DNA from: a phage
Direction: 5' to 3' (one strand)
DNA length: 64,000 nt
Sequence record: PZ402305.1
The position numbers and the translations under genes were made by a program. Below, piece by piece: positions 17,807-38,113 of this stretch. Position 1 is the stretch's first letter. Every line of letters starts with the position of its first letter. Below the pieces are notes generated by a model. The model was not told where the DNA came from. It ran no database searches and saw only the letters and a program-made list of their open reading frames with translations.

Positions 17807-18279
17807 TGGCAGATTTAACTACGATCAAAGTTTCTGATCTTACACAAACAACCTCTGTATCTGATACAGATTTCTTTGTAACAGATCAGGCTGGAATAAC
17901 AAAGAAGACTTCTTTGAAAGTGCTGTTGATTGGTGCAGGGGTAACTAGAAACCGTTTAAATGCACGTGGAACAGTAACTAGCACCTTGGCATTAGATATT
18001 AGTTCAGCAGAATATTTTTCGGCAACTTTATCTTCTGCAACATGCACAATTAGTTTTACTAATATTCCAGTAGCAACGAATGCAGTTTTAAACTTTACTT
18101 TAGCTTTGCGTCAAGGAAGTGGCGCAAATAAAGTCGTATGGCCTTCTTCTGTAAAATGGAGTTTTGGTCGTTCCCCAGTTTTGAGTTATCGTCAAGGTGC
18201 AACAGACACTTTTGAGTTTATCAGTTATGATAATGGTGCAACTTGGACAGGTAGCTTAGTTTTAGCAGGAGTTATTTAA
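17806..18279 (+). CDS. Hypothetical baseplate/tail protein
   Basis: 157-aa ORF, TAATG coupling with neighbours. Confidence 0.5.
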   Translation: MADLTTIKVSDLTQTTSVSDTDFFVTDQAGITKKTSLKVLLIGAGVTRNRLNARGTVTSTLALDISSAEYFSATLSSATCTISFTNIPVATNAVLNFTLALRQGSGANKVVWPSSVKWSFGRSPVLSYRQGATDTFEFISYDNGATWTGSLVLAGVI

Positions 18280-21155
18280 TGTCAAGAGTTAAGCACAATA
18301 TTGACAACACGTTTCAGTTGATTGAAGGGTTGGTTCAGTTTTTGGAAAGAAATACTGGGCTTACCATAGATCCTACGGTTCAGCATTACATTATCAACCC
18401 ACAAAACGTATTGGCGAACAACAGACACTTTATTAACTGGACAGCGCAGGAAGGGCAACCAAACGGTGACGCTACTACCGAAGGTCAATCTGTACTTATC
18501 ACTGGTTTTGCTTATGCATATTTGGCTACAGGGGATAAAAAATATCTTGAATCTGCCGAGAAGTATTGGCAAGCCTATATAGATCACTTCTTCGGGGGCC
18601 AACCTATTCCTGATCCTCCGGCTAAGTATCGTCCCAACTGGATCATCAATGGTAAAGAACCACGTTTAGCACATTACCCTCTCACAGATGATGGGTATCC
18701 TACGCACGGTGGGTTCAAAGGTAGCATGATGACTTGGATTAACGGAAGGACTGTTATTCCTAAAGGTGCACCGCATTGGGGGGAATACTTAGATAAAGCT
18801 TGGTTTGCTTTCAATGGCAATCTTGGTTGGAACTCCGTTAACGCAACAGTTTATGCAACTAATCCAGATGGTTCAACCAACTGGAAAGAATATGGAGATC
18901 AGTGGGACGTTGAATGGATTATAGATCGTCTAGGACGTAAAGTTGATTGGGATGGTAACATTTTATCTACAGGTCACAGCTTCGCAGAATATGGAACAGT
19001 GCAACTTAAAAATGCTTCTGTGAACGGTGATTATAAATTCAACTACGCTACATGCAACCCTGTAGAACACGGTGGATATCTGCTTAAGCGTAATGAGATG
19101 TGGCATAACCGTCCTGTAAACGTTCCGGTAGAGTTAGGTTATCAAGATAATGCTTCCGATGCTGAAACGTGGTGGTGTGATGCAAACTACTTGATGTATC
19201 AGATCACAGGAGAGAGAAAATACTGGCTTTGCTGGCAATCTTCTTTATTGTTGTGTCAAGACTACTCAAACATCGATATGTTTGATAAATTCTTCCGTAG
19301 ATCTACGACAGCAATAATTCCTTTTACAGATGGTATCTCGTATGATTACTCATACCCATCTACAGCAATACCTAAATATTCTCGTGACGAATTAGGATAC
19401 ACAGTAATTCGCCAAGATGTTTCAGCACAAACAACTCTAGAACAACAGGCAGTTTGGTTCAGAGTAGATCAGAATTCAAAACTGCGTATTGAGTTTCAAG
19501 GTGTAGATGATGCAGGGGAAGGTGTTCTTTTCCGTCCAGAGCTAGAATTAAGCAAAACTAAGAGTGAAACAGACACAGTGACATATCGTTGTGGCTTACC
19601 TCTTGGTGCAGCTAATATGACTAAGATGGATATACCTTTATCTAGTTTTATGCGCACAGAACCTCCTGGAGGTGGTGTATATATTATTGCTGAACCCAGA
19701 ATTATTGTTGACTGGGGAAGCAATACTGTGATACAATATAAATATGCAACTGGTATTGCTGGGACAAATAGTGATCAGATAGTTTCTGCTAATATGGATT
19801 CAGATGGTGGTTTTACTGTTGGGTTTTGGTTAACACCAACTAAAACAGCCAATTTAAAATCTATTACGTATCGTTCATACGCAGATGATTTTAACATCAC
19901 TATTACGGATTCCGCAGGTTGGAGATGGTGGGCCATGTTAGAAAAAACAAATTCTGCATGGGTTACTAAAGCTTTAAGTCCTGCCGATTTCAAATTAAGT
20001 ACTTGGCAACCTAATCACGAAGACACAGAGGCAAAACCTTCGTCAATAAACCTGACTGCTGTTGATCAGATCAATATTGCATTGGATTCTGAACCTGCAA
20101 ATGGCTTGACAGGGGCAATCGATTTTTATTGCGTTAACGATATCCCATCTTTGTATTCTTCAGCCACTGGTGATGATTACACAATGTATTTCAGGGTTAC
20201 AGTTTCATCTGAAAATCCTTATACAGCAAAACTTGGAGATTGTACAATACTGGACTACAAACTTAACAGTTTGAATTATACTCCAGGAATCATTCCATTT
20301 TCCAATATCAGTGATCCTAACACAGCCTTATATGACGGTTGGCGTGGTATTCCTTACCCAGGTTATCAATACCCATCCTTATATTGTTTTAAAGGGAGAG
20401 ATATTGATTGGGTTCGTATGAACAACAGTATAGACTTTTTATATGATTCACAAATGTGGTTTTATAATAAGTTTGCTCCTGTGATGCCTGGACCAATGGC
20501 ACAAGCTTATGTTTGGGATCGTTGGGATGCTCATAAATACGGAAACAAGAATGAGTTCACAATGTATCATTGGAACGATAAAGCTTGGGATGGTTATGAA
20601 GCACGAGCATTCTTCTGTGCGTGTCATACAGTATACGAACTGAAACAACGAGGAGCAGAAGTTCCTGAAAAACTTTTAACAGTTTGTAAAAACTGGATCA
20701 ACTATCTAAAGTGGTTCCAAGACAACAACGAAGGAAGAACACCAACAATATTTTATCCCAACGGAGAAGTGGCAGCACCTGTAGATGACTTTACAAGTCA
20801 CATGTCTGCGCTCTTTATGGCAGGATGTGCTATAATGGGGATGGCTGGGTATGATTCAGAAATTCCTAACATTAAAATAGTAGCAGACCGCTGTTTTGAA
20901 CTTATTCAGGAAAATTATATTGTTCTTGGTCCTAATCATGTTATGAATGGCTGTTGGAGTTCCGCTCCTAGACCAGATAGTGATAACGGAGTCTTCTTTG
21001 GCTTCCACGCTGGAGAGTTGTTACGTGGTTTTGGGTTGTATGCTTTATACAAAAAACTTAATCCCCAAAATGCATTACCTGTTTTGGATTCGAGCAATAT
21101 TCCTGCACTTACTGTTTTGACAATGGCAAACATTAGTGTGGACGTTACCGAGTAA
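18279..21155 (+). CDS. Large virion structural protein (tail fiber or baseplate-associated, putative)
   Basis: 958-aa ORF in tail module, Trp/Tyr/Asn-rich, TAATG-coupled start. Confidence 0.45.
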   Translation: MSRVKHNIDNTFQLIEGLVQFLERNTGLTIDPTVQHYIINPQNVLANNRHFINWTAQEGQPNGDATTEGQSVLITGFAYAYLATGDKKYLESAEKYWQAYIDHFFGGQPIPDPPAKYRPNWIINGKEPRLAHYPLTDDGYPTHGGFKGSMMTWINGRTVIPKGAPHWGEYLDKAWFAFNGNLGWNSVNATVYATNPDGSTNWKEYGDQWDVEWIIDRLGRKVDWDGNILSTGHSFAEYGTVQLKNASVNGDYKFNYATCNPVEHGGYLLKRNEMWHNRPVNVPVELGYQDNASDAETWWCDANYLMYQITGERKYWLCWQSSLLLCQDYSNIDMFDKFFRRSTTAIIPFTDGISYDYSYPSTAIPKYSRDELGYTVIRQDVSAQTTLEQQAVWFRVDQNSKLRIEFQGVDDAGEGVLFRPELELSKTKSETDTVTYRCGLPLGAANMTKMDIPLSSFMRTEPPGGGVYIIAEPRIIVDWGSNTVIQYKYATGIAGTNSDQIVSANMDSDGGFTVGFWLTPTKTANLKSITYRSYADDFNITITDSAGWRWWAMLEKTNSAWVTKALSPADFKLSTWQPNHEDTEAKPSSINLTAVDQINIALDSEPANGLTGAIDFYCVNDIPSLYSSATGDDYTMYFRVTVSSENPYTAKLGDCTILDYKLNSLNYTPGIIPFSNISDPNTALYDGWRGIPYPGYQYPSLYCFKGRDIDWVRMNNSIDFLYDSQMWFYNKFAPVMPGPMAQAYVWDRWDAHKYGNKNEFTMYHWNDKAWDGYEARAFFCACHTVYELKQRGAEVPEKLLTVCKNWINYLKWFQDNNEGRTPTIFYPNGEVAAPVDDFTSHMSALFMAGCAIMGMAGYDSEIPNIKIVADRCFELIQENYIVLGPNHVMNGCWSSAPRPDSDNGVFFGFHAGELLRGFGLYALYKKLNPQNALPVLDSSNIPALTVLTMANISVDVTE

Positions 21156-21163
21156 GGGGTAAA

Positions 21164-23317
21164 ATGAAACAAGCTATATTTACTGTCACGCGAGACAAGA
21201 GAGTAAATGCGAGTTCATTTAACTACACGACTGTTGATGGAACAGCAGTCGCTGGTAGAGATTATATTGCAAAATCGGGAACACTTGTGTTCCCTGATGA
21301 TGCTGATTCTGCTACCATTGTGGTTGAAGTATTTGAACGACCAAAGAACTCAATAGATCTTAACTTCTCCCTCCAAGTTTCAGGGATTAGTCAAAATAAT
21401 ATGATGGTTGAAACAACCATCAATTGTATTATAACTACTATCCAAGAAAATACCACTCCAATAACTTGGACTACAAAAGACGTTAAAATGTTCTCTCCTA
21501 TGTATTGGACAATAGATTCTCAAGCAACGGAAAGTTGTTCTATTGTATCTCATGGAGACTCTTTTACTGCAAGATTTGTAAACAGAACAACAGCAGGTTT
21601 GGCAGGGGTTATCTGGAGCACAGTTGACAAATATGACCATAAAGGTGTTGGGTATTTACCCCACACAGATTTAAGTTCAGAGAAACTTTGGTTTAAAATG
21701 GAAATTAGTCAAAACATGCCAGGTTTTAAAGAAGAACCTTTGGTGCCGACTTTGACTGTAACTCTCCTGGATAAAAGTGTTCATTATGTCAGTTTAGGAT
21801 TCTACGCTTCAGATATTTCAGAAGATGGTAAAACAGCTACAATCAAGTTAGATTTTGGTAATATCTTTTCTGGCCCTAACAATGATATTCCTTTAGATAT
21901 GAGTGCTGTAGATAATATTTTCTTCTCTTTGATTACAGCAAGGTATGAAGAAATAGAAGAGATTGTACCTATTGCCAGTCAAGAGGCTTGGTTTACTTTC
22001 ACTCTTCTTGAACCTACTTCTGGTTACAGTATGATGAAAGTCAGCAACCTTGTCCAGCCTGAACATGATATTCGCATGTGCACATCTTATGATGATATGT
22101 ATAACCTGACCCCAGAGAGAGTTATTTACAATACATATGCACTAGGTTATCGTGGAATGATTAACCATTACAACGGAATGTCTCACTATTATGAATTCTC
22201 ATGGAACGGAACATCTTGGGCTTTAAATAGATCTGTTTTCCTGAATCCGGCTACAGAAGCTTGGCTTAACAGTTTCCATTCTATAGCTAATGAAAATGGC
22301 TACACAATAATGAACTCTTTGAGTTTTGAGTTGATGAGCACAGTTTGTCCTGTAGAATGGGTTCAACATGATTGGAACGATGCTCTTGCAGCAACAGGTT
22401 ATGAGCCGCCTAGTTATGTATTATCTCCAACAATTGATGAAGGTATGGAATATTTGCAAAATGTTATTAACAAAATAGCATCTATTTCTCAAGCTAACAA
22501 TATTCCAGTCGTCATTCAAATTGGTGAACCTTGGTGGTGGTATAATACAGCAAGTAAAATGCCTTGTATATATGATTACACTACCAAACTGGCATTCAAT
22601 ACAGAAACAGGCTTATTTGCACAAGATGCAGGAACAATAGATAATTATAAAACAGGAACGCCATTTGACGAATACTATGCATTTTTGTCTCGTAAACTAG
22701 GGTTAAGAGTTACAAAGTTTGCAACAGACACCAGAGCAACTTATCCTGGAGCTAAAGTAACATTGCTTCCGTTCTTACCATCAATTATCGGCAACGGTTT
22801 GATGGAGAAAGTTAACTTTCCGTCTGATTACTACATTCCTGAAGCTTTTGATTTTTATTGTTCAGAGTGTTACGACTGGCTTCTGGAAGGTAAAATGATG
22901 AAAGCATTTGATGCAATTACCATACCACATGAAAAATTAGGCTTTGAATATTCTGATATTCACTACCTTTCAGGTTTTGTTCCAGATGCTACTCTTGCAC
23001 CTTTGTATGGCTTTGTTCCTGAATCAAACTACCGCACATATCTTTGGAAGATGATTATAGGTAATATAGTGTTGAACGCCAATAAGTTCAATGGGCTTAC
23101 ACAATATATATGGGCCTATCCTCAAATAATGCATGATTCCATCACGGTAGTTAATTCTCAATCCCAAGTTTTCTATATGGGTAATGTGCCTTTGAATTGT
23201 TATTTGCAAGATATCACTCTTAAACAAGCAAATGTTGAGATTGCTACCATAAGTGGAATTACATTAGCTACTAAATCTGGAGAAGATTTAGTAACAACAC
23301 AAAAATTTTATATATAG
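21164..23317 (+). CDS. Tail fiber/structural protein (putative)
   Basis: 717-aa ORF with AAGGGG RBS in tail fiber region. Confidence 0.45.
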   Translation: MKQAIFTVTRDKRVNASSFNYTTVDGTAVAGRDYIAKSGTLVFPDDADSATIVVEVFERPKNSIDLNFSLQVSGISQNNMMVETTINCIITTIQENTTPITWTTKDVKMFSPMYWTIDSQATESCSIVSHGDSFTARFVNRTTAGLAGVIWSTVDKYDHKGVGYLPHTDLSSEKLWFKMEISQNMPGFKEEPLVPTLTVTLLDKSVHYVSLGFYASDISEDGKTATIKLDFGNIFSGPNNDIPLDMSAVDNIFFSLITARYEEIEEIVPIASQEAWFTFTLLEPTSGYSMMKVSNLVQPEHDIRMCTSYDDMYNLTPERVIYNTYALGYRGMINHYNGMSHYYEFSWNGTSWALNRSVFLNPATEAWLNSFHSIANENGYTIMNSLSFELMSTVCPVEWVQHDWNDALAATGYEPPSYVLSPTIDEGMEYLQNVINKIASISQANNIPVVIQIGEPWWWYNTASKMPCIYDYTTKLAFNTETGLFAQDAGTIDNYKTGTPFDEYYAFLSRKLGLRVTKFATDTRATYPGAKVTLLPFLPSIIGNGLMEKVNFPSDYYIPEAFDFYCSECYDWLLEGKMMKAFDAITIPHEKLGFEYSDIHYLSGFVPDATLAPLYGFVPESNYRTYLWKMIIGNIVLNANKFNGLTQYIWAYPQIMHDSITVVNSQSQVFYMGNVPLNCYLQDITLKQANVEIATISGITLATKSGEDLVTTQKFYI

Positions 23318-23325
23318 GAGTAAAA

Positions 23326-25392: not shown

Positions 25393-25399
25393 AACAAAA

Positions 25400-25415
25400 C
25401 CCCGCTTCAGCGGGG
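25400..25415 (-). terminator. GC hairpin, terminator-like in minus orientation
   Basis: ccccgc-ttca-gcgggg stem-loop preceded by an A-run on the plus strand, so the U-tract is on the minus strand. Confidence 0.3.
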
Positions 25416-25505
25416 AATTATAAAGGTACTATCATGGTCTTCATTACGATTCACACAAACTATGTCCTGCAAGCGCATGTCATCGCCATGTGATAAAATG
25501 ATGAA

Positions 25506-25604
25506 AACATATCGTAGCAGGGTTAATCTTGTCTTTAGTTACTATCGTACTAACTCAAAATGTTGTCACTACCACTGCAAGCCCCTCCAAAGAGGGGTTT
25601 ACTT
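25506..25604 (+). ncRNA. Candidate small RNA (about 100 nt) between tailspike gene and next operon
   Basis: Extended -10-like element TGaTAAAAT at 25491-25499, no convincing RBS-led ORF, and an intrinsic terminator at 25582-25604. Confidence 0.2.
25582..25604 (+). terminator. Rho-independent terminator (plus strand)
   Basis: cccctc-caaa-gagggg stem-loop followed by tttactt. Confidence 0.5.
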
Positions 25605-25624
25605 AGAAAAACAAAGAGGTTGTT

Positions 25625-25933
25625 ATGAACGAAATGTTCTCCCAAGGTGGTAAAGGTTCAACCGGAATCTTAACCAATAAACAAGCAGTAGCCCGTCACT
25701 TTGGAGTTAAACAATCTGAGGTTGTTTACTTCTCAGTTGGTGTGGATTTGGGTGGGTATAAGGTTATCTATGATAAGGAGACGCAAAGGGCGTATTCCCT
25801 ACCTGCTGATATTGCCCTAGGTACTACTGCCATTAGTCTTAGTGCTGCTGTACTTGTGCATTCAGCGGGTTCTGTAGACCTTGGGGAATTAGCTGTATCT
25901 CGTGATTTAAAAAGTAAGGAGAACGCACCATGA
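25625..25933 (+). CDS. Hypothetical protein
   Basis: 102-aa ORF with AAGAGG RBS. Confidence 0.55.
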   Translation: MNEMFSQGGKGSTGILTNKQAVARHFGVKQSEVVYFSVGVDLGGYKVIYDKETQRAYSLPADIALGTTAISLSAAVLVHSAGSVDLGELAVSRDLKSKENAP

Positions 25934-26172
25934 GAAAGTTTTTAATCGGAATGTTTTGTACTTATCCAAACAACAAAATCAGTTCTACTAAAGTGTGGAA
26001 CGCACTGGGAATGCTAACCATGACAGGCATGTTTATCTTTTTAGGAATAGAAAAAGAAATTCCTGAATGGATGGGTTGGGCTTTTGTTTTCATGATAACC
26101 CCTTCTCGCCTCATGAAAAATCTTATTGATTTACGTTGGGGCAGATCACAATCTACCAAAGAGGATGACTAA
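25930..26172 (+). CDS. Small membrane protein (two predicted TM helices, charged C-terminus)
   Basis: 80-aa ORF with hydrophobic segments (MLTMTGMFIFLGI; WMGWAFVFMITP) and AAGGAG RBS; start overlaps upstream stop. Confidence 0.5.
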   Translation: MRKFLIGMFCTYPNNKISSTKVWNALGMLTMTGMFIFLGIEKEIPEWMGWAFVFMITPSRLMKNLIDLRWGRSQSTKEDD

Positions 26173-27659: not shown

Positions 27660-27661
27660 AA

Positions 27662-28291: not shown

Positions 28292-28300
28292 GGAGTTTAA

Positions 28301-29908: not shown

Positions 29909-29917
29909 GGGATCATT

Positions 29918-30253
29918 ATGGAATTTCAAGAAGCATGGGGACTTGCAAAGGATGCAATCATCCCTTTAATCGGAGTCATCTGGTTCTTTTTCAAACAAAA
30001 AATGGATAAATTCGGCTCTGATCTTGAGGAAATGGAGGAGAAAAGTCGAGAGCTAGAGAAGAAGTTGGTCTTTGTTGAATCAACCTATGCAACTAAAGCC
30101 GAACTTACCCAGATGCTAAATCAAATTAACTCTACATTAATGGCAAATAATAACACTCTTGAGCAAAAAATTGAAAAGATTATGGACCTCAAGAATGCGA
30201 CTATTCAAATGATGCTAGATGACATAGTTAAACGTACACAGAATAAGGGGTAA
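29918..30253 (+). CDS. Small protein with N-terminal TM helix and coiled-coil tail
   Basis: 111-aa ORF; hydrophobic segment IIPLIGVIWFFF then heptad-like charged region. Confidence 0.5.
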   Translation: MEFQEAWGLAKDAIIPLIGVIWFFFKQKMDKFGSDLEEMEEKSRELEKKLVFVESTYATKAELTQMLNQINSTLMANNNTLEQKIEKIMDLKNATIQMMLDDIVKRTQNKG

Positions 30254-30256
30254 TTA

Positions 30257-33200
30257 ATGGCAACATTCCCAACGTATCCAGCAACGTCTCTTGAACAGGG
30301 CGTAGATCTGGTTATTTTCTCGTCCAATCAACTTCATGATGTTATTAATGGAAGTGCGACAGAAAGTATTGAGACAGAATCAGGGTTGATACCAACCCTG
30401 AGAAAAGCCCTTGTTGATAACTTTTTCTTTAAAAGCCCATTGGATTGGGCGCAAGGCACAAATGAAACGGTTTTTAACCAACTACGTTATTTTCAGAATG
30501 GGGTATTGAGCGGTTATTATTATGCTCCTAATGCTACATTGGTAAACCCAATCCCTATGCAAGGTACTCCAGTAGGAGATAACAACTGGGTATTGTGGGG
30601 ATTGAAGACAGAACAATTGGCAACAGAAGTCACACCTTGGGTATATTCTGGTGCAACTGGTTATGAAACAGTAATCAGTCCTCCTTACATCTTTGATAGT
30701 GCTATTGTTACGATCAATGGTGTTATTCAGGTTCTGGGGGAAGCTTTCCGTATAGAAGATAGTAAGATCATCTTATCTGAACCTTTGGGACACGATCCTG
30801 CAACAGGACTGCCAAACAAGCTTTTTGCTTATATTGGTAAAATCGTAGCTTCAGCAGATACAGATCCTAATCTAGAGAACCGTCTTGTTAGTTTAGAAAC
30901 AAAAACGGAAGAACTAACAGAAAGCATGGATAAAGTCCCTCTGCAAACTATTGCTCGTAAGTATGGTTTGTTAGATGATGAGGTGGCTTACGCAACAGCA
31001 GGTCAATCGTTAACAGGGATTAAAGCTCTGTATGATCCGGTAGCACAGTCTTCCTACACATTACCTCCTAACATCACAGGAACTTTAACATCCTTATCTG
31101 TTTCTGGAGTAATGACTTATTCTGGAGGATCTGTAGACCTTTCTGCACTGGCTGTTGAGCGTGGACAGTTTGTTCATTTACCTACAAGCTTTGGTAATAA
31201 CGTAACTCTGACAGCTAAAAATCAGACGATTGGACGTGGTGCTGGTCGTTATCGTTGGGCTGGAAGTTTACCAAAAAGTATTTTGGCCTCTGATACATTG
31301 GAGACAAGCGGAGGATTAGGTCCAAATGCATGGGTTCTGACTAATACAGAAGGACTGTTAACCCCTCGTGGTGGAACATACAACGATCTATTCGATGTTG
31401 TCTACTTGTCAGAATTTGCTAACAATACAACTACCTATACCACACCAGAAGCAGCTTTCCAGGCGGCACTGTTAGCAGCAAAAGCTTCGAAAAGCAAGAT
31501 TCTCGATGCTTACGGTTGCGATATGACTTTCACGACAAGCTCTTTTGATATTCAAGATATCACTTTGCGTGGTGGTGTGTTCCGTGGTCAACGTGACTAT
31601 CGTGTGCAGAATGCTACAGTAGAAGGCACAACTTTCCGTAACTCTCGTGTTATGTATTGGGGTGGTGCTGTGCGCATGTTCGATTGTTTGTGGGACGGTG
31701 CTCCTCGCCCAGGTCAAGTTGGTAGCTTGGTATTCCAAGGCAACCCAATATCAGGTACTTTTGAAATTGATAATTGTACTTTTAAAAACGGGTTGTATGG
31801 CATCCTTCAACAAGGGACAGGGGAACCAGTAACACGCGGTGTCTTCCGTAACCTTACCTTCATGGACATGCAAGGTGATGCAATAGAACTGAACGTCATC
31901 AATAAACATTATGACGATGGTTGTGTGATTGAGAATATTTACCTGTCTAATATCGATGGGACTAACGCTCCTATTCCTCTGTCCAACTGGGGTATCGGTA
32001 TCGGTGTAGCTGGTAAAGGACCATATGGTTACGGAATCCCTGATGATCAATATTGCAAGAATATTACAATTCGTAACGTTTTTGCAAAACGTTGTCGTCA
32101 GATTGTCCACGTAGAAGTTGGTCGTAATATCTCTATCGAAAACATTCATGGCGATCCAGACCAGACCGTATCTGTTGGGACAGGTTTGGCAACTGGCGCA
32201 GTTGTAATGTATGGAAGTAAAGATTTTACGATTGACGGTGTTTACGGAGAGCCTAAAACAGACGGTAGCACACTTGCAAGTAATATCCGTATGATTTATT
32301 TGGAGTGGGGAACTAACGCAGTTCTGGACGAAGAGGGTAATCCGGTAGTTCCGGCACAGGGTAGACCTTCAAACCCATGCTTTAACTATTCTGTTCGTAA
32401 CATTCACACCAAAACTGGGCGTGTTTTTGCGGGAGTTTCCGCTGGGCCAGGTTATGAAAACAGAGTTAGCTTTGAAAATATTCGTTGCGCTGCATTGCAG
32501 TTGTTCGGTATAGCTTCTTGGCTTTCAATGTCTAACATCACCTGTAATATCTTCGATTGTGTTGGTCAACCTGAATCTGGTCCAGGGACATTTTATGATG
32601 GATTCTTCCGTAGAGAAAAATCTGTTCTTGAAATGGTTAACGTAAACTGTTACCCAGATGGCAAGACGATGGTTACTGGTCGTCCACAGTGGAGCCGTTG
32701 CCGTTACTCGGATATTCATCGTGTCAACTGTAATGTTGAAGCTAATATGTATACCAATATCGCAGGTGGTATTGGAGCTATTGTAGGGACAACGGGCAAA
32801 GTTTATTACTTAGAGCCTAATCCTAGTCGAAACATTGATGGAATGCATTTCCCAACAGGGAAAGAGTTTGACAAAGGTGATATGATAGTCAAGGCGGATA
32901 ATACGTTCTTCCTTGTAACAACAAGTGGGGCATATATTCCAGATATCCCAGCTTTCGGTATTCGAGCTACACAGGCAGGAGATACCTTCCTGACACAGAA
33001 CTTGACTCCTAACGGGACAGCAACAAATGCTTCTTGGTTGTATCATTACCCTCTGTCAGCAGGGACACGTATTCGTATTCCTGGTGCTGGCGTAGGTGGA
33101 GCAGATTTGGACACAGTTATTACTCGTGCACCTTATCAAGATAATGATACGTGGACTAACCCAGTTAAAATAGACATTGCAGATCCAATTGTAACGCCTA

Positions 33201-33310
33201 CAAGTGCTGGAGTTAGAATTAAAACCATACCTAATGATTCCAGTAATGTTTCTGTAGGTAATACTGCGGTTATTCGCCCAACGCCAGTAGTAGATGTGCC
33301 AACAACCTAA
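30257..33310 (+). CDS. Tailspike/tail fiber with predicted right-handed beta-helix (depolymerase-like)
   Basis: 1017-aa ORF; central region with repeated N-x-x-I/V-x-N ladders (NITIRNVFAKRC..NISIENIHGD) typical of pectate-lyase-like beta-helices. Confidence 0.5.
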   Translation: MATFPTYPATSLEQGVDLVIFSSNQLHDVINGSATESIETESGLIPTLRKALVDNFFFKSPLDWAQGTNETVFNQLRYFQNGVLSGYYYAPNATLVNPIPMQGTPVGDNNWVLWGLKTEQLATEVTPWVYSGATGYETVISPPYIFDSAIVTINGVIQVLGEAFRIEDSKIILSEPLGHDPATGLPNKLFAYIGKIVASADTDPNLENRLVSLETKTEELTESMDKVPLQTIARKYGLLDDEVAYATAGQSLTGIKALYDPVAQSSYTLPPNITGTLTSLSVSGVMTYSGGSVDLSALAVERGQFVHLPTSFGNNVTLTAKNQTIGRGAGRYRWAGSLPKSILASDTLETSGGLGPNAWVLTNTEGLLTPRGGTYNDLFDVVYLSEFANNTTTYTTPEAAFQAALLAAKASKSKILDAYGCDMTFTTSSFDIQDITLRGGVFRGQRDYRVQNATVEGTTFRNSRVMYWGGAVRMFDCLWDGAPRPGQVGSLVFQGNPISGTFEIDNCTFKNGLYGILQQGTGEPVTRGVFRNLTFMDMQGDAIELNVINKHYDDGCVIENIYLSNIDGTNAPIPLSNWGIGIGVAGKGPYGYGIPDDQYCKNITIRNVFAKRCRQIVHVEVGRNISIENIHGDPDQTVSVGTGLATGAVVMYGSKDFTIDGVYGEPKTDGSTLASNIRMIYLEWGTNAVLDEEGNPVVPAQGRPSNPCFNYSVRNIHTKTGRVFAGVSAGPGYENRVSFENIRCAALQLFGIASWLSMSNITCNIFDCVGQPESGPGTFYDGFFRREKSVLEMVNVNCYPDGKTMVTGRPQWSRCRYSDIHRVNCNVEANMYTNIAGGIGAIVGTTGKVYYLEPNPSRNIDGMHFPTGKEFDKGDMIVKADNTFFLVTTSGAYIPDIPAFGIRATQAGDTFLTQNLTPNGTATNASWLYHYPLSAGTRIRIPGAGVGGADLDTVITRAPYQDNDTWTNPVKIDIADPIVTPTSAGVRIKTIPNDSSNVSVGNTAVIRPTPVVDVPTT

Positions 33311-33316
33311 TGGAAT

Positions 33317-33340
33317 AGAGGGGGAATCCCCCTCTTCTTC
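33317..33340 (+). terminator. Rho-independent terminator
   Basis: gagggggaatccccctc hairpin followed by ttcttcc. Confidence 0.6.
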
Positions 33341-33371
33341 CAATAGAATGGTCTAATGATAGGAGAGATAA

Positions 33372-35396
33372 ATGAATTTAACAAGACCTAATAGTGCGAT
33401 AGCCGATCTGGTAGAAGCTACTTATCGAAAACGTCGCAGCTTTGAGGCAGGTTTTACATTACGTAATTCCCGTGAAGTTTTGCTGTTAGCAGCAGAAGGG
33501 AATTATTACCAATGGAAAGGAACTTTTCCTAAAGTAGTTCCAGCAAACTCTACGCCAGCCACCACAGGTGGTATTTCTTCCCTTGCATGGCAAAGTGTTG
33601 GGACCGCTGATGATATAGCAATTATCAATGCCAAGTTTACGGCAATGCAGCAACAAATTGATGATCTGTCGGAAACAATACCTGAAGCTGGTAAATCGGC
33701 TTATCAGATCGCACTTGATAATGGTTTTGTTGGAACAGAAGCACAATGGCTTGCCTCTTTGAAAGGGGATACTGGTGCTCAACTCAATATTAAAGGATCA
33801 TTAGCAAGCACTAGTGAACTACCATCCACAGGTAACGTTGCAGGGGATGGTTATATCGTAGGCGATGTAATCTACGCTTGGGATGGTTCTGTTTGGAAAC
33901 TTATTTCTTCTCTTGGACCAGAAGGTAAATCAGCTTACGAGGTATGGTTGGCAGATGGTAATACAGGATCTGTTTATGATTTTCTTACCTCTATAAAAGG
34001 TGATAAAGGCGATGTTGGTCCTACAGGGCCACAGGGAGCACCTGGTGTTAACGCCAACGGTTTTGATTATCGTGGAGATTTGCCTTCTACAAGTAACTTA
34101 CCACAACCTAACTCTGAAAACGTAAGCCAAGCTTATTCTATCAGTGGTAATCTTTATGTCTCTAATGGGACAGCTTGGGTCAACATGGGTAATATTGTTG
34201 GTCCTCAAGGTCCACAAGGTGAGGCAGGTAAAGACGGTCTAGATGGAACAGATGGAGATGAAGGGAAATCTGCATATCAAAGTTGGCTGGATGCTGGTAA
34301 TGAAGGGACAGAAGTAGATTTTATTGCCTCGCTTAAAGGTCCAAAAGGAGACAAGGGTGATCAAGGAGAGCGAGGTCCACAAGGCGAATTAGGTCCACAA
34401 GGACCAGTAGGCGCAACAGGATCAGGCTTAGAGATTATCGGGGTTCTGAACAGCGAAGCTGAACTTCCTCCGACTGGAGAAGTAGGTGATGCATATAAAA
34501 TTAATAATGATTTGTATGTTTGGGTCCAAGATGCTACGGAATGGATGAATGTTGGCAGTCTCGGAGGAACATCAATTACAGCTAAAGGTCATGTTCCGAA
34601 CAGTGAAGCTCTCCCTGTTTACAATAACTATGGTGATGCTTACTTAACTGAAGACACTAGTAATCTTTACATCTATACCTACGATCAAGACACCAATTCC
34701 GCATCTTTTGTTGACATGGGAAGTATTAAAGGCGACAAAGGTGAAAAAGGGGATAAAGGAGATAAGGGTGATCCTGGAACAAACGGAACCAACGGTACTG
34801 ATGGGACCAACGGTAAGGACGGCGCACAGTGGTTTGTAGCAACAACTAATCCAGTCGCAGGAGACGGTGTTATCAATGATTACGCCTTCAATACTACCAC
34901 TGGAGCAGTGTTTAAGAAAACAGATTCTTCTACGTGGACACTTATAGGAACTCTTCCTAGTATACCAGAAGCCCCTCAAGACGGCTTGACGTATGGTCGT
35001 TCTGATGGAAACTGGATCGAAATATCAGGATCAGATCCTACGGAAGCTATAACACCAACTAGAGTTACAGCAGGTTTCATGGAACTTGAAACAACTACTG
35101 CCAACTCTGGAGCATCTTGGACTCCTTCTGGAACTTCCAATATGTATGTTGTTACAGTAACTGACGCTCTGACAGTTGGAGCATGGCCTGGTGTCACTGG
35201 CTCTACAAAACCTAAAGCGTTTTCAGCAATGATTTATTTGATTCAAGATACAACGGGACACACGGTTACACTAGATGCGTCTTATGGAGCACTAAATGAT
35301 ACAGAAATAGCAACTACTGCTAACGCAGTAACAATTTTGCAATTAACGTATCCTGGTGTGGGTGATATCGTGGACATGGTTGTTGTAACACGATAA
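33372..35396 (+). CDS. Tail fiber protein with collagen-like Gly-X-Y repeats
   Basis: 674-aa ORF with runs of GPQGPQGEAGKDGLDGTDG and GDKGEKGDKGDKGDPGTNGTNGTDGTNGKDG. Confidence 0.7.
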   Translation: MNLTRPNSAIADLVEATYRKRRSFEAGFTLRNSREVLLLAAEGNYYQWKGTFPKVVPANSTPATTGGISSLAWQSVGTADDIAIINAKFTAMQQQIDDLSETIPEAGKSAYQIALDNGFVGTEAQWLASLKGDTGAQLNIKGSLASTSELPSTGNVAGDGYIVGDVIYAWDGSVWKLISSLGPEGKSAYEVWLADGNTGSVYDFLTSIKGDKGDVGPTGPQGAPGVNANGFDYRGDLPSTSNLPQPNSENVSQAYSISGNLYVSNGTAWVNMGNIVGPQGPQGEAGKDGLDGTDGDEGKSAYQSWLDAGNEGTEVDFIASLKGPKGDKGDQGERGPQGELGPQGPVGATGSGLEIIGVLNSEAELPPTGEVGDAYKINNDLYVWVQDATEWMNVGSLGGTSITAKGHVPNSEALPVYNNYGDAYLTEDTSNLYIYTYDQDTNSASFVDMGSIKGDKGEKGDKGDKGDPGTNGTNGTDGTNGKDGAQWFVATTNPVAGDGVINDYAFNTTTGAVFKKTDSSTWTLIGTLPSIPEAPQDGLTYGRSDGNWIEISGSDPTEAITPTRVTAGFMELETTTANSGASWTPSGTSNMYVVTVTDALTVGAWPGVTGSTKPKAFSAMIYLIQDTTGHTVTLDASYGALNDTEIATTANAVTILQLTYPGVGDIVDMVVVTR

Positions 35397-35400
35397 CAGA

Positions 35401-35425
35401 AGCCCCGAAAGGGGCTTTCTTTTTA
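35401..35425 (+). terminator. Rho-independent terminator
   Basis: agcccc-gaaa-ggggct stem-loop followed by ttcttttt. Confidence 0.7.
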
Positions 35426-35437
35426 TGGAGGGTTTAA

Positions 35438-38113
35438 ATGTTTCCAATTCCAATATTTACTATTATGACCAGCACTGGTGTTGTTCCTCTGCCAGCAGGT
35501 ATTGTTAAAAAAGTAATCACTTTAGATTACCCAGATAATGCTGGTAATTCTAACAGCAGTTTAGCAATTTTGCTTAATGATGGTAGATTGTTTACTCAAG
35601 GCGCAAACCTTTTTGGTGAGATTGCAGATGGAACTCGTAGTGCACGATTCAATAATTTCCATTTAGCTTCTACTGTAGTAGCGGATGTGTTTACCGCAGA
35701 TCGTTGTTTTGTTATTAAAACTAACAGTGGGGGATGGCAATATTCAGGATTGACAGCAGGGTTGGTAGGATCTATAGCAGCAGGTGGTACGGACGCATGT
35801 GTAACTACTTGGACCAGCTTTCCATCTGTAATAACAGGGACTATCTCTTTAGCTAATCTTAAAGAGGTTAAGGGAGGATATAACAACACTCTCTGGTTAA
35901 TGAATAGTGGTGTTCTTTATGGATCAGGTCAAAACACAGTAGGCAGTTTAGGTGCAAGTACTACTAACGAAGTTTCTACTCCTCGTCAGATAACAAGTGC
36001 AGCAGTTGCTTTTGATGCAGGTTACAACCAATGCTCTTATGTCAACAATGTGGGAACCTTGCGTGTTTGTGGAGCTAGTAAAGGTTTAGCAGGTAATAAT
36101 AACACAACAACAGCTTTTGTCAATGCTAAGATATCCGCTACTGAAACAGTGTATGTCAAAGATTACATCAATACAGTTTCCCAGACAATAGTTGTAGGAG
36201 ATACCTCCGGTGGCACGGGTACAGTAAACTACTTATATGTTAGGTCTAATACAGAAACAACCTACACTAAACTGGATACCTTTGCAGCAGGTTTCTCAAC
36301 ATGGAAGTTTCCACCAAGCCGCCACTCTTTTTTCGTTGGGATCAATAATTCCTTGTGGGCTATTGGTAAGAACTACACTGCAAACTTAGGTTTGGGGTAT
36401 GATTCTGCGAGCGGAGATCCACTCCAAGTGGGAAAACCAGTTAAACCTGAAGGAGTGGGTTCTTGGGATATAAACAAGCTCACAAGCGTTCATACGCTGA
36501 ATATGGATGTTACTAACCAATTAGGTTATCAAGGAACCTTTTTCGTTTATAATGGAGATATGTATTATTCCGGTATTTGGAAAGATGGGAAAGCCTCGTA
36601 TCTGTTCAATAGCGGTCTAAACTATAATAAATTCACACCAATAGCAAGCTCCGTGATTACGGGTGATATTCTGGCAACTGGCTTAACTACAGATTCTTTA
36701 GGAATTTGTATTGTAGGTGGAACTAAACAGTTGACACATTCTGTTAGCCCAGAAGGAGGTAAACTTTTCAATATTAAATACACTTCTTCTGCCCCTGCAA
36801 ACATGACAATATCATCTACTGGTTTAATGACTTTCCATGCAGAAGGTGGTTTTGATGCAGGTATGACAGCCTTAAACGCCGAAGGAACAACTTTATCAGA
36901 TACCTCTGGAGGATATGCTTCAACATTGAGTGTTTACACCCCTAGCTTATCTGCGATGGATGTAGGAACAACACAAACAATGGTAGCAGAAATAACGCCA
37001 ACAGGAGCAGCAAGCTTACCTGGTATGGTTGTTGAGTATTTCTCTAATGACCCTACGGTAGCAACAGTTGACCCTGTTACAGGCGTTATTACAGCGGTTG
37101 CTGATGGAGGTTGTCGTATCGGTTGTAGAGCAACTTATCAAGGTGTGGTAACTGCCGAAGATAGTTCTTATCTCACAGTGAATGCTGTGGTGATTGTGAT
37201 GGATTATGATTTGACGCAAGAAACTATTCCGGCGGATGTAAAGGTCAACAGGAGTAACCGTTATGCCAGGGCTTCTGGAGATATCCTTGTACCTACAGAG
37301 AGTTCTGCTCCCGTAGCACCTTTAGAATATGTTGGTACAACTCCACAAGGTAGACGTGTTGTAGCAGCCAACCGTACACATATCTTTATCAACAATAACT
37401 TGACAACAGCTTCCCCGTGGTTGAAGACGAACTTGACAGTCACAGCATCAACAATCAACTCTCCGGTTGGAACTACGGCTAACACTTACAAGTTAACACC
37501 TTCTACAACTTCAGGACAACATATTTTATCAGCAGTGAATACAGCTTCTGATATTACAGCAGGTAAGCACTGGGCGGCATCCGTATTCTTGAAGCCAGAT
37601 GGGATCACTAAAGTGAAACTCAAATTGACTTCAGGAGATGAGATTAACGAAGGGACTTATGATCTTGTAGCTGGAACATTTACAGGTGCAGATGCAAACA
37701 TAATCGATATGGGGAATGGTTGGTATCGTGTAATTCTACACAAAGTGACAGTTGCCAAACAAGCATCTATAACCTATGAGATTATAGCTTTGAATGCAAG
37801 TGGATCAGACACTTTCGCAGGAGATGGTACGGCAGGTCTTATTGCTTGGGTTCCACAGCTTGAGATGGGTGATATGACAAATCCAGTTTGGGCGGGGACA
37901 CCATTTGTTTGTTCTTATGCACGAGACACTACCAGTGCTGTTACCTTCACTATTCCTAAGAATGGACATACTGGCGTGGACATTTACCACACTGATGGTA
38001 CTGTGCAACGAGAGGTCTTCACTGGTACAGCTACAACTTGGATGTTGACGTTCACCGCCGCAAGTGCGGATTGGGGATCGAAGTTCATTACAGGTTTGAA
38101 ATATTACGACTAA
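35438..38113 (+). CDS. Tail fiber / receptor-binding protein (putative)
   Basis: 891-aa Thr/Gly/Ser/Ala-rich ORF, last gene of plus-strand arm. Confidence 0.45.
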   Translation: MFPIPIFTIMTSTGVVPLPAGIVKKVITLDYPDNAGNSNSSLAILLNDGRLFTQGANLFGEIADGTRSARFNNFHLASTVVADVFTADRCFVIKTNSGGWQYSGLTAGLVGSIAAGGTDACVTTWTSFPSVITGTISLANLKEVKGGYNNTLWLMNSGVLYGSGQNTVGSLGASTTNEVSTPRQITSAAVAFDAGYNQCSYVNNVGTLRVCGASKGLAGNNNTTTAFVNAKISATETVYVKDYINTVSQTIVVGDTSGGTGTVNYLYVRSNTETTYTKLDTFAAGFSTWKFPPSRHSFFVGINNSLWAIGKNYTANLGLGYDSASGDPLQVGKPVKPEGVGSWDINKLTSVHTLNMDVTNQLGYQGTFFVYNGDMYYSGIWKDGKASYLFNSGLNYNKFTPIASSVITGDILATGLTTDSLGICIVGGTKQLTHSVSPEGGKLFNIKYTSSAPANMTISSTGLMTFHAEGGFDAGMTALNAEGTTLSDTSGGYASTLSVYTPSLSAMDVGTTQTMVAEITPTGAASLPGMVVEYFSNDPTVATVDPVTGVITAVADGGCRIGCRATYQGVVTAEDSSYLTVNAVVIVMDYDLTQETIPADVKVNRSNRYARASGDILVPTESSAPVAPLEYVGTTPQGRRVVAANRTHIFINNNLTTASPWLKTNLTVTASTINSPVGTTANTYKLTPSTTSGQHILSAVNTASDITAGKHWAASVFLKPDGITKVKLKLTSGDEINEGTYDLVAGTFTGADANIIDMGNGWYRVILHKVTVAKQASITYEIIALNASGSDTFAGDGTAGLIAWVPQLEMGDMTNPVWAGTPFVCSYARDTTSAVTFTIPKNGHTGVDIYHTDGTVQREVFTGTATTWMLTFTAASADWGSKFITGLKYYD

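What the first reader, a model, noticed from the sequence alone, without database searches (positions are those of the whole stretch)
18279..38113. Unusually large receptor-binding arsenal: about seven fiber or spike genes in 20 kb
The 3' third of the structural arm encodes proteins of 958, 717, 688, 353 (+181-aa Tfa-like chaperone), 1017, 674 and 891 aa. They include a collagen-repeat fiber (33372-35396) and at least one Asn-ladder beta-helix tailspike (30257-33310), each ending in its own terminator. Multiple distinct fibers and depolymerase-like spikes suggest a branched, multi-receptor adsorption apparatus and broad or capsule-dependent host range.
Basis: partly seen in the sequence, partly recalled or inferred. 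Interest (0 to 1): 0.45.

Follow-up and report, generated by a model that had tools for sequence, protein, structure and literature searches.

The report
Known multi-receptor tail locus of phAPEC8-like phage

Summary
The ORFs exist exactly as listed. The region is 97-98% identical over its full length to deposited Phapecoctavirus genomes (TSP7_1, UP17) and is gene-for-gene syntenic with phi92 gp140-gp152, the published "multivalent adsorption apparatus".

What each of the seven proteins is:
- **688 aa:** a beta-helix tailspike. It is the only variable cassette in the locus.
- **1017 aa:** a colanidase-like beta-helix tailspike.
- **674 aa:** a collagen-repeat fibre.
- **353 + 181 aa:** a short tail fibre with its Tfa chaperone.
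- **717 aa:** not a fibre. It is an N4 gp64/gp65-like TIM-barrel protein, a predicted glycan deacetylase.
- **958 aa:** not a fibre. It is a highly conserved globular protein with a glycoside-hydrolase-like (alpha/alpha)6 barrel.
- **891 aa:** an RCC1-type propeller, an Ig domain and a variable C-terminal tip. Its place on the virion is unknown.

Stable hairpins follow four genes, and only two of these look like canonical terminators.

The multi-receptor interpretation is supported, but it is the hallmark of this subfamily rather than something unusual. One modest new inference: natural fusion proteins suggest the chain wedge → 958-aa protein → 717-aa protein. The phi92 homologues of those two proteins are not placed in the 2026 cryo-EM study.

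The parts
17806..18279 (+). 157-aa small tail protein, homologue of phi92 gp140.
   Evidence: 84% identical to phi92 gp140. The phi92 2026 paper lists gp140 among fibre-like candidates. No Pfam hit.
18279..21155 (+). 958-aa conserved globular protein (phi92 gp141 homologue). It has a glycoside-hydrolase-like (alpha/alpha)6 barrel with beta-sandwich (CBM-like) insertions. It is probably attached to the wedge and carries the 717-aa protein.
21164..23317 (+). 717-aa protein made of Calx-beta + NCTSP_N + TIM barrel (phi92 gp142 homologue). It is related to the N4 gp64/gp65 sheath-type receptor-binding proteins. Predicted glycan deacetylase that targets the conserved wecB/nfrB-dependent surface glycan.
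   Evidence: Pfam: TIM-barrel_NCTSP 8.4e-80, NCTSP_N 2.2e-16, Calx-beta 8.9e-11. PDB: 9lc0_M N4 Gp64 at 7.9e-30 and N4 gp65 at 8e-12. 77% identical to gp142. Literature: PMC8594841 and PMC8669472.
23326..25392 (+). 688-aa right-handed beta-helix tailspike. It is the only variable cassette of the locus. The N-terminal anchor (aa 1-54) is shared with the phi92 and phAPEC8 endosialidases, followed by a Tail_spike_N neck (aa 93-150) and a foreign receptor-binding/depolymerase module (aa ~160-688).
   Evidence: aa 1-54 are 94% identical to gp143 and the rest is unrelated. Full length is present in only 3 of 50,697 phage records. The slot holds a 921-aa endosialidase in phAPEC8, a 762-aa spike in Ro121c4YLVW, and nothing in ESCO37. 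AF2 beta-helix with pLDDT above 90 for aa ~230-490. Top Foldseek hits are CBA120 TSP4/3/1 and the Klebsiella K2-2 TSP. Module homologues occur in ~40-kb phage contigs and in P22-like E. coli prophage tailspikes.
25400..25415 (+). GC-rich hairpin directly after the 688-aa gene. There is no U-tract on the + strand.
   Evidence: Folding energy -12.2 kcal/mol, z -2.6.
25625..25933 (+). 102-aa orphan ORF. It is the N-terminal (TD1-type) stub of a foreign tailspike, probably a relic of cassette acquisition.
   Evidence: Up to ~92% identical over aa 1-94 to the N-termini of tailspikes of some Kuttervirus and ~72-kb N4-like phages. 43% identical to aa 230-302 of the 1017-aa protein. Present only in relatives with a spike-type cassette.
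25930..26172 (+). 80-aa small hydrophobic protein, in the position of phi92 gp144.
   Evidence: Translation. Annotated 'membrane protein' in Ro121c4YLVW and phi92.
26172..27659 (+). 495-aa baseplate wedge subunit (phi92 gp145 homologue). It is the docking platform for fibres I and III.
   Evidence: Baseplate_J 2.5e-8. phrog_6. 80% identical to gp145. Role in phi92.
27662..28291 (+). 209-aa baseplate wedge subunit (phi92 gp146 homologue).
   Evidence: phrog_4056 at 6.8e-81. 87% identical to gp146.
28301..29362 (+). 353-aa short tail fibre (phi92 gp147 = fibre III homologue). The distal tip differs from the phi92 tip.
   Evidence: 75% identical to gp147 over aa 1-267 only. phrog_4465. The C-terminal tip matches the phiTE short tail fibre 9cuy_c at 5.7e-23. 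gp147 is assigned as fibre III.
29363..29908 (+). 181-aa tail fibre assembly chaperone.
   Evidence: Caudo_TAP 2.9e-13. phrog_136 at 4.6e-42.
29918..30253 (+). 111-aa small protein with an N-terminal hydrophobic segment and a coiled-coil-like remainder (gp149 homologue).
   Evidence: 76% identical to gp149. The translation shows no lipobox cysteine.
30257..33310 (+). 1017-aa colanidase-like beta-helix tailspike. It consists of a gp150-type N-terminal anchor (aa 1-215), an inserted CBA120-type TD1/TD2 neck (aa ~226-372), and a catalytic beta-helix (aa ~426-1000).
   Evidence: 6e0v at 1.5e-78. CBA120 TSP1/3/4 and G7C gp63.1 N-terminal domains at 1e-26 to 1e-30. Tail_spike_N 2.4e-9. phrog_6117 'colanic acid degradation' at 6.8e-283. 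75% identical to gp150 at the N-terminus and 33% in the catalytic part.
33311..33342 (+). Strong hairpin after the 1017-aa gene, with a weak U-tract.
   Evidence: Folding energy -20.4 kcal/mol, z -3.0.
33372..35396 (+). 674-aa collagen-repeat tail fibre (phi92 gp151 homologue) with an N-terminal Tail_spike_N domain.
   Evidence: Tail_spike_N 1.3e-19 and Collagen 3.3e-12. G-X-Y runs in the translation. 60% identical to gp151. The C-terminal tip matches the phiTE tail fibre 9cuy_g at 4.2e-8.
35399..35418 (+). Canonical intrinsic terminator after the 674-aa gene.
   Evidence: The phAPEC8 record annotates a terminator here.
35438..38113 (+). 891-aa protein made of an RCC1-like beta-propeller (aa ~40-330), a Big_2 Ig domain (aa ~505-560) and a variable C-terminal domain (aa ~615-831) related to the RcGTA head-spike fibre. 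It is a putative receptor-binding protein whose position on the virion is unknown.
   Evidence: Pfam RCC1 and Big_2. 6tb9 Rcc01080 at 5.7e-14. Only aa 411-587 match phi92 gp152. Relatives keep aa 1-~590 but swap the C-terminal third.
38117..38144 (.). Terminator hairpin at the convergence of the rightward structural arm and the leftward genes.
   Evidence: -16 kcal/mol, z -4.3. The GC skew changes sign here.

Best explanation
The region is the baseplate-periphery and receptor-binding gene block of a Phapecoctavirus (phAPEC8-like, subfamily Stephanstirmvirinae) myophage. It is orthologous gene-for-gene to phi92 gp140-gp152.

Proposed working (inferred from homologues unless marked otherwise). 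Six copies of a wedge built from the 495-aa and 209-aa proteins carry several different receptor-binding proteins at once:
1. A conserved pair: the 958-aa protein (glycoside-hydrolase-like barrel) and the 717-aa protein (N4 gp64-like deacetylase-type TIM barrel). This pair addresses a conserved, wecB/nfrB-dependent surface glycan.
2. A swappable beta-helix tailspike (688 aa). It docks through a conserved 54-residue N-terminus, and its foreign catalytic module sets O-antigen or capsule specificity.
3. A colanic-acid-degrading tailspike (1017 aa).
4. A collagen-like fibre (674 aa).
5. A propeller-Ig protein with an exchangeable tip (891 aa).
6. A short fibre (353 aa, folded with the help of the 181-aa chaperone). 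This is the homologue of phi92 fibre III, which binds the LPS core and whose rearrangement triggers sheath contraction.

Shown here: gene content, domain content, orthology, and which module varies between relatives. Inferred: the receptors, the enzymatic activities and the positions on the virion.
For: - Identity to deposited Phapecoctavirus genomes: 97.8-98.4% over 99-100% of the region.
- Synteny and 60-87% protein identity with phi92 gp135-gp151.
- Domain hits: Tail_spike_N in three proteins, plus Collagen, Caudo_TAP, Baseplate_J, NCTSP TIM barrel, Big_2 and RCC1; PHROG tail families.
- PDB sequence hits: 6e0v colanidase 1.5e-78, N4 Gp64 7.9e-30, CBA120 tailspikes, phiTE short and long fibres.
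- AF2 plus Foldseek give a beta-helix tailspike for the 688-aa protein.
- Within the genus every gene is 96-100% identical except the 688-aa slot. That slot holds an endosialidase, another spike, or nothing in relatives.
- Literature: three co-expressed fibre sets with fibre II branching from fibre I in phi92, and gp147 as fibre III (PMC13450770); dependence on wecB/nfrB and on the LPS core for this phage group (PMC8594841, PMC8669472); broadest host range for Phapecoctavirus isolates (PMC10844046); Phapecoctaviruses isolated in a second-round screen against phage-resistant mutants that included a colanic-acid overproducer, one of them encoding a colanic-acid-degrading protein (PMC12753057).
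Against: - No experimental data exist for this particular phage, and all activities are inferred.
- The catalytic part of the 1017-aa protein is only 33% identical to the phi92 colanidase, so its substrate could differ.
- The 958-aa, 717-aa and 891-aa proteins have no assigned density in any published structure. gp141 and gp142 are not mentioned in the 2026 phi92 paper.
- The 891-aa C-terminus resembles a head-spike fibre, and phi92 gp151 resembles a head spike of phage Pa223. One or two of these proteins might therefore sit on the head or neck rather than the baseplate.
- gp10-like XD branching domains of the Ackermannviridae type were not detected.
Confidence: 0.87

Rival explanations
1. Only part of the block is an adsorption arsenal. 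The 958-aa, 717-aa and perhaps the 891-aa proteins would be conserved structural components (baseplate periphery, tail or head decoration). Their carbohydrate-enzyme-like folds would be catalytically dead scaffolds, so the phage would effectively have three or four receptor-binding proteins rather than seven.
For: The 958-aa protein is far more conserved than a typical receptor-binding protein: about 45% identity across phages of different bacterial orders, at constant length. It and the 717-aa protein are 98-99% identical across the genus. In N4, gp64 is the minor subunit of a structural sheath. The 891-aa C-terminus matches a head-spike fibre. No catalytic residues were verified for any of these proteins.
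Confidence: 0.3
2. The several spikes and fibres are not displayed together. They would be alternatives, for example differentially expressed or incorporated, giving a mixed particle population instead of one multivalent particle.
For: Separate hairpins or terminators follow the 688-, 1017-, 674- and 891-aa genes. These could allow graded or independent expression. Some relatives lack the 688-aa slot gene altogether and are still viable.
Against: All genes are on one strand in one tight late-gene block with no convincing internal promoters (47 promoter-like sites against 52 expected by chance). phi92 cryo-EM shows three fibre sets simultaneously with six-fold occupancy. The proteins have different N-terminal anchors rather than one shared anchor competing for one site.
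Confidence: 0.07

Closest known systems
Escherichia phage phi92 multivalent adsorption apparatus (gp140-gp152; Justusliebigvirus, Stephanstirmvirinae)
   Same: Same gene order from the tape measure to the last fibre. Protein identities: gp141 83%, gp142 77%, gp145 80%, gp146 87%, gp147 75% (aa 1-267), gp151 60%. gp150 is 75% identical over the N-terminal 215 aa and 33% in the catalytic part. The anchor, wedge and short-fibre logic is the same.
   Different: The fibre-I slot carries a 688-aa beta-helix tailspike instead of the 918-aa endosialidase, and only the first 54 aa are shared. The colanidase-like spike has an extra ~240-aa TD1/TD2 neck insertion. The last gene is 891 aa (propeller + Ig + tip) instead of the 202-aa Ig protein gp152. 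The short-fibre tip and the chaperone are diverged (24% identity for the chaperone).
Phapecoctavirus genomes: phAPEC8 (type), Ro121c4YLVW, vB_EcoM_UP17, TSP7_1, ESCO37
   Same: 96-100% protein identity for every gene of the block except one. UP17 and TSP7_1 also share the 688-aa spike at 99%.
   Different: The slot between the 717-aa gene and the small membrane-protein gene differs: a 921-aa endosialidase in phAPEC8, a 762-aa spike in Ro121c4YLVW, and empty in ESCO37.
Ackermannviridae (CBA120) branched tailspike complex TSP1-4
   Same: Three proteins here carry the Tail_spike_N / TD-type N-terminal domain. Two are right-handed beta-helix spikes whose best structural matches are CBA120 TSP1, TSP3 and TSP4. 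Receptor-binding modules are exchanged horizontally in the same way.
   Different: No gp10-like XD2/XD3 branching domains were detected. The anchoring N-termini are phi92-type. The spikes are scattered among baseplate genes rather than forming one four-gene cluster.
Phage N4 non-contractile sheath gp64/gp65 (PDB 9LC0, 9YF4)
   Same: The 717-aa protein combines the NCTSP_N domain (as in gp65) with the gp64-type TIM barrel. Phages carrying this module share dependence on wecB/nfrB.
   Different: Here the two parts are fused into one chain with an added N-terminal Calx-beta domain, on a contractile-tailed phage. It does not form a sheath around a podovirus tail.
Vequintavirinae (rV5) lateral tail-fibre locus
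   Same: A large conserved locus with several glycan-active proteins, a few variable large fibre genes, Mu gpS/gpU-like short fibres and a chaperone.
   Different: rV5 has two short-fibre paralogues and different large fibres (1272-1279 aa). Its DNA is not closely related.

Membership tests
Stephanstirmvirinae / Phapecoctavirus receptor-binding locus (phi92-type multivalent adsorption apparatus) | Near-identity of the DNA to classified Phapecoctavirus genomes | tested here: met
   97.8-98.4% identity over 99-100% of the 19.8 kb to TSP7_1 and UP17. 54 records cover at least 80%.
Stephanstirmvirinae / Phapecoctavirus receptor-binding locus (phi92-type multivalent adsorption apparatus) | Gene-for-gene synteny with phi92 gp135-gp152 (hub, spike, sheath initiator, gp141, gp142, variable spike, wedge pair, short fibre + chaperone, colanidase, fibre) | tested here: met
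   Every gene has its phi92 counterpart in the same order.
Stephanstirmvirinae / Phapecoctavirus receptor-binding locus (phi92-type multivalent adsorption apparatus) | Several fibre or spike types displayed simultaneously on the baseplate | not testable with these tools
   Shown only for phi92 by cryo-EM (PMC13450770).
Right-handed parallel beta-helix tailspike depolymerases | Beta-helix fold of the central domain (688-aa protein) | tested here: met
   AF2 pLDDT is above 90 for aa ~230-490. Foldseek probability 1.00 to CBA120 TSP4/3/1, the K2-2 TSP, Sf6 TSP and others.
Right-handed parallel beta-helix tailspike depolymerases | Beta-helix catalytic domain homologous to a characterised enzyme (1017-aa protein against the phi92 colanidase gp150) | tested here: met
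   6e0v E 1.5e-78 over aa 426-1000, 33% identity. Conservation of catalytic residues was not examined.
Right-handed parallel beta-helix tailspike depolymerases | Trimeric assembly and polysaccharide-degrading activity | not testable with these tools
   Only monomer models were made and there is no biochemistry.
Ackermannviridae-type branched TSP complex | TD/Tail_spike_N N-terminal domains | tested here: met
   PF18668 is above its cut-off in the 688-, 1017- and 674-aa proteins.
Ackermannviridae-type branched TSP complex | T4 gp10-like XD2/XD3 domains that link spikes into a branched complex | tested here: inconclusive
   No Pfam or PDB sequence match to an XD region. The only match to full-length TSP2 (6w4q aa 159-258, E 1.1e-7) overlaps the TD-type neck. 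No structure-based search of the N-terminal regions was done.
N4 gp64/gp65-type glycan-deacetylase receptor-binding proteins | NCTSP_N domain plus NCTSP TIM barrel | tested here: met
   PF23844 at 60.1 bits and PF23845 at 268.8 bits, both with a cut-off of 27. 9lc0_M at 7.9e-30.
N4 gp64/gp65-type glycan-deacetylase receptor-binding proteins | Deacetylase activity, and infection dependent on wecB/nfrB | not testable with these tools
   Known genetically for N4, Vequintavirinae and phi92-like phages, not for this phage.
Short tail fibre + Tfa chaperone pair (Mu gpS/gpU, P2 gpH/gpG type) | A fibre gene immediately followed by a Caudo_TAP chaperone gene | tested here: met
   The 353-aa gene ends at 29362 and the chaperone gene starts at 29363. 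Caudo_TAP E 2.9e-13.
Collagen-like phage tail fibres | Runs of G-X-Y triplets | tested here: met
   Pfam Collagen 3.3e-12. Runs at about aa 210-227, 276-298, 322-351 and 472-504.
(alpha/alpha)6-barrel glycoside hydrolases (GH8, GH76, GH88, GH105-like), for the 958-aa protein | Complete (alpha/alpha)6 barrel fold | tested here: met
(alpha/alpha)6-barrel glycoside hydrolases (GH8, GH76, GH88, GH105-like), for the 958-aa protein | Sequence membership in a CAZy/Pfam GH family, and catalytic acid/base residues in place | tested here: not met
   No Pfam family at E <= 0.01 and no PDB sequence hit. Identity to the structural matches is only 9-14%. Catalytic residues were not mapped. It works-like or looks-like a GH barrel, but it is not filed as a member.

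The most novel reading that the evidence does not exclude
The 958-aa and 717-aa proteins (phi92 gp141 and gp142) may form a wedge-attached, enzymatically active glycan-processing module. Neither protein is mentioned in the 2026 phi92 cryo-EM study. The module would correspond to the density that study leaves unassigned, either fibre II or the proximal arm of fibre I. The 958-aa protein would be a new, sequence-orphan family of virion-borne (alpha/alpha)6 glycosidases, conserved across phages of Enterobacterales, Pseudomonas, Stenotrophomonas and marine bacteria. The attachment order wedge -> 958 -> 717 is suggested by natural fusion proteins: Tail_P2_I + 958-like, and 958-like + 717-like.
Probability: 0.3. 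Interest if true: 0.45.

Novelty: already known. Interest (0 to 1): 0.15.

Why it matters
The multi-receptor tail of phi92/phAPEC8-like phages is a recognised reason for their broad host range and their use in phage-therapy cocktails, so this window adds another near-identical example and no new principle.

Two practical points follow:
- Within the genus, host-specificity differences should map almost entirely to one swappable cassette, the 688-aa spike. A second, smaller contribution may come from the tip of the 891-aa protein. Both are obvious targets for engineering.
- The two large conserved proteins not mentioned in the 2026 phi92 cryo-EM study can now be given a testable position (wedge -> 958 -> 717) and a testable fold-based function.

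Tried and rejected
- **Sigma-70 promoter scan:** fewer sites than expected by chance (47 against 52.4), so it says nothing about internal promoters.
- **Terminator scan:** the total count is at chance (15 against 13.6). Only the position directly after stop codons and the folding energies make four hairpins credible.
- **Wedge fusion partner:** I tested whether the Tail_P2_I part of fusion protein P0169 resembles the window's 209-aa wedge protein. There is no similarity, so the fusion argues for wedge attachment only in general terms.
- **Phage LHE287:** I suspected it was a Phapecoctavirus with a second, intact spike at the position of the 102-aa stub. Its context (a VriC gene and three large tail proteins) shows it is not.
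- **Original phi92 paper (PMC3457257):** not held in the library. Statements about it rest on papers that cite it.
not found in any protein.
- **'Lipoprotein' annotation of the 111-aa ORF:** not supported by its sequence.


Full report

Yes for the genes.

| Coordinates | Length |
|---|---|
| 18279-21155 | 958 aa |
| 21164-23317 | 717 aa |
| 23326-25392 | 688 aa |
| 28301-29362 | 353 aa |
| 29363-29908 | 181 aa |
| 30257-33310 | 1017 aa |
| 33372-35396 | 674 aa |
| 35438-38113 | 891 aa |

The GC skew changes sign at about 38 kb, which marks the end of the rightward structural arm.

**2. What the window is.**

The 19.8-kb region matches 223 phage records. It is 97.8% identical over 100% of its length to Dompiswa phage TSP7_1 and 98.4% over 99% to Escherichia phage vB_EcoM_UP17. 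It is 97-99% identical over 86-92% to phAPEC8, Ro121c4YLVW, ESCO13, Schickermooser and many others. All of these that carry a classification are Stephanstirmvirinae, genus Phapecoctavirus.

The sister genus is represented by phi92, whose locus is syntenic. A local blastp gives the following identities to phi92 proteins:

| Window protein | phi92 homologue | Identity |
|---|---|---|
| 958 aa | gp141 | 83% |
| 717 aa | gp142 | 77% |
| 495 aa | gp145 (wedge) | 80% |
| 209 aa | gp146 (wedge) | 87% |
| 353 aa | gp147 | 75% over aa 1-267 |
| 111 aa | gp149 | 76% |
| 1017 aa | gp150 | 75% over aa 1-215, 33% over the catalytic part |
| 674 aa | gp151 | 60% |
| 891 aa | gp152 | 62% over aa 411-587 only |

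**3. Protein by protein.**

*958 aa.*
- It has no Pfam family and no PDB sequence hit.
- Its homologues have a constant length of about 940 aa and are about 45% identical, even in phages or prophages of Pseudomonas, Stenotrophomonas and marine bacteria. More than 100 columns are invariant. That is the signature of a conserved machine part or enzyme, not of a variable fibre.
- The AlphaFold2 model is confident (pLDDT 84.9, pTM 0.81) and globular: helical hairpins interrupted by beta-sandwich domains.
- It is therefore not a fibre or spike, but it does have a glycan-enzyme-like fold.

*717 aa.*
- Pfam finds Calx-beta, NCTSP_N and the NCTSP TIM barrel (E 8.4e-80).
- The PDB hits are phage N4 Gp64 (7.9e-30) and N4 gp65 (8e-12).
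- In N4 these two proteins form the receptor-binding 'non-contractile sheath' (PMC13434306).
- Sellner et al. showed that all these phages depend on wecB and nfrB, that is, on the N4 glycan receptor rather than on ECA itself (PMC8669472).

*688 aa.*
- aa 1-54 are 94% identical to the phi92 endosialidase gp143. The rest is unrelated to it.
- Tail_spike_N lies at aa 93-150.
- The AF2 model shows a right-handed beta-helix with pLDDT above 90 for aa ~230-490. Its best structural matches are CBA120 TSP4, TSP3 and TSP1 and Klebsiella or Acinetobacter depolymerases.
- Only 3 of 50,697 phage records contain the full-length protein.
- The same receptor-binding module occurs at 93-97% identity in 661-aa spikes of ~40-45-kb phage contigs. 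It occurs at 79-84% in P22-like prophage spikes of E. coli (with a head-binding domain), and at ~40% in T7-like fibres. This is a classic horizontally exchanged module.

*353 + 181 aa.*
- These are a short tail fibre and its Caudo_TAP chaperone.
- The homologue gp147 is fibre III of phi92. It attaches to the bottom of wedge protein gp145, and its rearrangement is proposed to trigger contraction.
- The distal tip (after aa 267) differs from phi92. It resembles the tip of the phiTE short tail fibre (PMC11972413).

*1017 aa.*
- The catalytic part matches the crystal structure of the phi92 colanidase tailspike gp150 (6e0v, 1.5e-78).
- aa ~226-372 match the N-terminal tandem domains of CBA120 TSP1, TSP3 and TSP4 and of G7C gp63.1. 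This ~240-aa neck is an insertion relative to gp150.
[quoted passage not shown] This is consistent with the predicted activity but does not prove it.

*674 aa.*
- It has an N-terminal Tail_spike_N domain, four G-X-Y collagen runs, and a tip related to a phiTE fibre.

*891 aa.*
- Its homologues are confined to ~140-156-kb phage contigs. They keep aa 1-~590 but carry different C-terminal thirds. That is the usual pattern of a receptor-binding protein with an exchangeable tip.
- Where it sits on the virion is unknown.

**4. Which parts vary.**

I compared six relatives by tblastn. Within Phapecoctavirus every gene of the block is 96-100% identical, with one exception: the slot occupied here by the 688-aa spike. 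That slot holds a 921-aa putative endosialidase in phAPEC8, a 762-aa spike in Ro121c4YLVW, and nothing in ESCO37. This agrees with published remarks that Phapecoctavirus isolates differ in 'a specific putative RBP' (PMC10844046).

Next to the cassette lies a 102-aa ORF (25625-25933). It is up to ~92% identical to the first 94 residues of tailspikes of some Kuttervirus and ~72-kb N4-like phages. It occurs only in relatives with a spike-type cassette. I read it as a relic of the recombination that brought the cassette in.

**5. Terminators.**

Stable hairpins lie directly after four genes:

| After gene | Folding energy | U-tract |
|---|---|---|
| 688 aa | -12.2 kcal/mol | none |
| 1017 aa | -20.4 kcal/mol | weak |
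| 674 aa | -15.2 kcal/mol | good |
| 891 aa | -16.0 kcal/mol | good |

The phAPEC8 record annotates the last two as terminators. No hairpin follows the 958-, 717- or 353/181-aa genes.

**6. Mechanism.**

By orthology with phi92, six wedges (495 + 209 aa) carry several receptor-binding proteins at once. In phi92 there are three fibre sets, and fibre II branches from the base of fibre I.

The most likely sequence of events is inferred from the literature on this phage group:
1. The spikes clear or bind variable and protective glycans: O-antigen or capsule for the 688-aa spike, and colanic acid for the 1017-aa spike.
2. The conserved 717-aa module addresses the wecB/nfrB-dependent glycan.
3. The short fibre binds the LPS outer-core glucose and triggers contraction.

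Shown here: the domains, the orthology and the pattern of variability. Not shown: any activity, any receptor or any position on the virion.

**7. A small new inference.**

Two metagenomic proteins are natural fusions:
- P0169 (1097 aa) joins a Tail_P2_I wedge domain to a 958-like protein (43% identity over aa 182-1082).
- P0177 (1557 aa) joins a 958-like protein (44% identity) to a 717-like NCTSP_N + TIM barrel (51% identity). It lacks only the Calx-beta N-terminus of the 717-aa protein.

This argues for a physical chain: wedge -> 958-aa protein -> 717-aa protein. The 2026 phi92 cryo-EM paper never mentions gp141 or gp142, and it leaves fibre II and the proximal arm of fibre I unassigned. This is a hypothesis, not a result.

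**8. Comparison and novelty.**

[quoted passage not shown] The sequence itself is 97-99% identical to deposited genomes.

But nothing here is new in kind, so I rate it 'already known' with low interest. The only open points are the placement and activity of the 958-, 717- and 891-aa proteins.

Noticed in passing
window 25625-25933 (+): A 102-aa ORF with its own ribosome-binding site, preceded by a hairpin. It is up to ~92% identical to the first 94 residues of tailspikes of some Kuttervirus and ~72-kb N4-like phages, and 43% identical to aa 230-302 of the window's 1017-aa spike. It looks like a truncated relic of a foreign tailspike gene. RefSeq and GenBank records label it 'tail protein' or 'tail spike protein'.
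   Followed up: partly
window 23326-23487 (aa 1-54 of the 688-aa protein): The first 54 residues are 94-96% identical to the N-terminus of the phi92 and phAPEC8 endosialidases, while the rest of the proteins are unrelated. This is a sharply bounded docking adaptor that defines the recombination boundary of the variable cassette.
   Followed up: partly
window 29918-30253 (+): The 111-aa ORF is annotated 'lipoprotein' in RefSeq relatives. It has no lipobox cysteine. It has one N-terminal hydrophobic segment followed by a coiled-coil-like sequence, so the annotation looks wrong.
   Followed up: partly
window 37200-38113 (C-terminal third of the 891-aa protein): Relatives such as phage tuntematon and phiWec190 keep the first ~590 residues at 78-98% identity but carry a different C-terminal third. 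This is a second, less obvious variable receptor-binding tip in the locus. This tip is distantly related to the head-spike fibre of the Rhodobacter gene transfer agent.
   Followed up: partly
proteins P0169 and P0177 (metagenomic homologues of window 18279-21155): Natural fusions of the 958-aa family: one to a P2 gpI-type wedge domain, the other to the 717-aa family. Other homologues of 1420-1660 aa carry a glycine-rich C-terminal domain (PF21722).
   Followed up: yes
locus L006 (ESCO37) 4386-6702, compared with window 21164-26172: In ESCO37-type relatives the variable spike gene, the hairpins and the 102-aa stub are all missing. The 717-aa homologue is shortened to 687 aa and overlaps the next gene. 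The phage is evidently viable without a fibre-I-slot spike.
   Followed up: partly
window 38117-38144: A hairpin flanked by an A-run and a U-run sits between the convergent 891-aa gene (+) and the 295-aa gene (-), at the point where the GC skew changes sign. It probably works as a bidirectional terminator.
   Followed up: partly
window 14307-15008 (+): The 233-aa protein is annotated 'tail fiber protein' in RefSeq relatives. It has a Dit-like domain (PF21821, 9e-27) and is the homologue of the phi92 tube initiator gp135, so that annotation is also misleading.
   Followed up: partly
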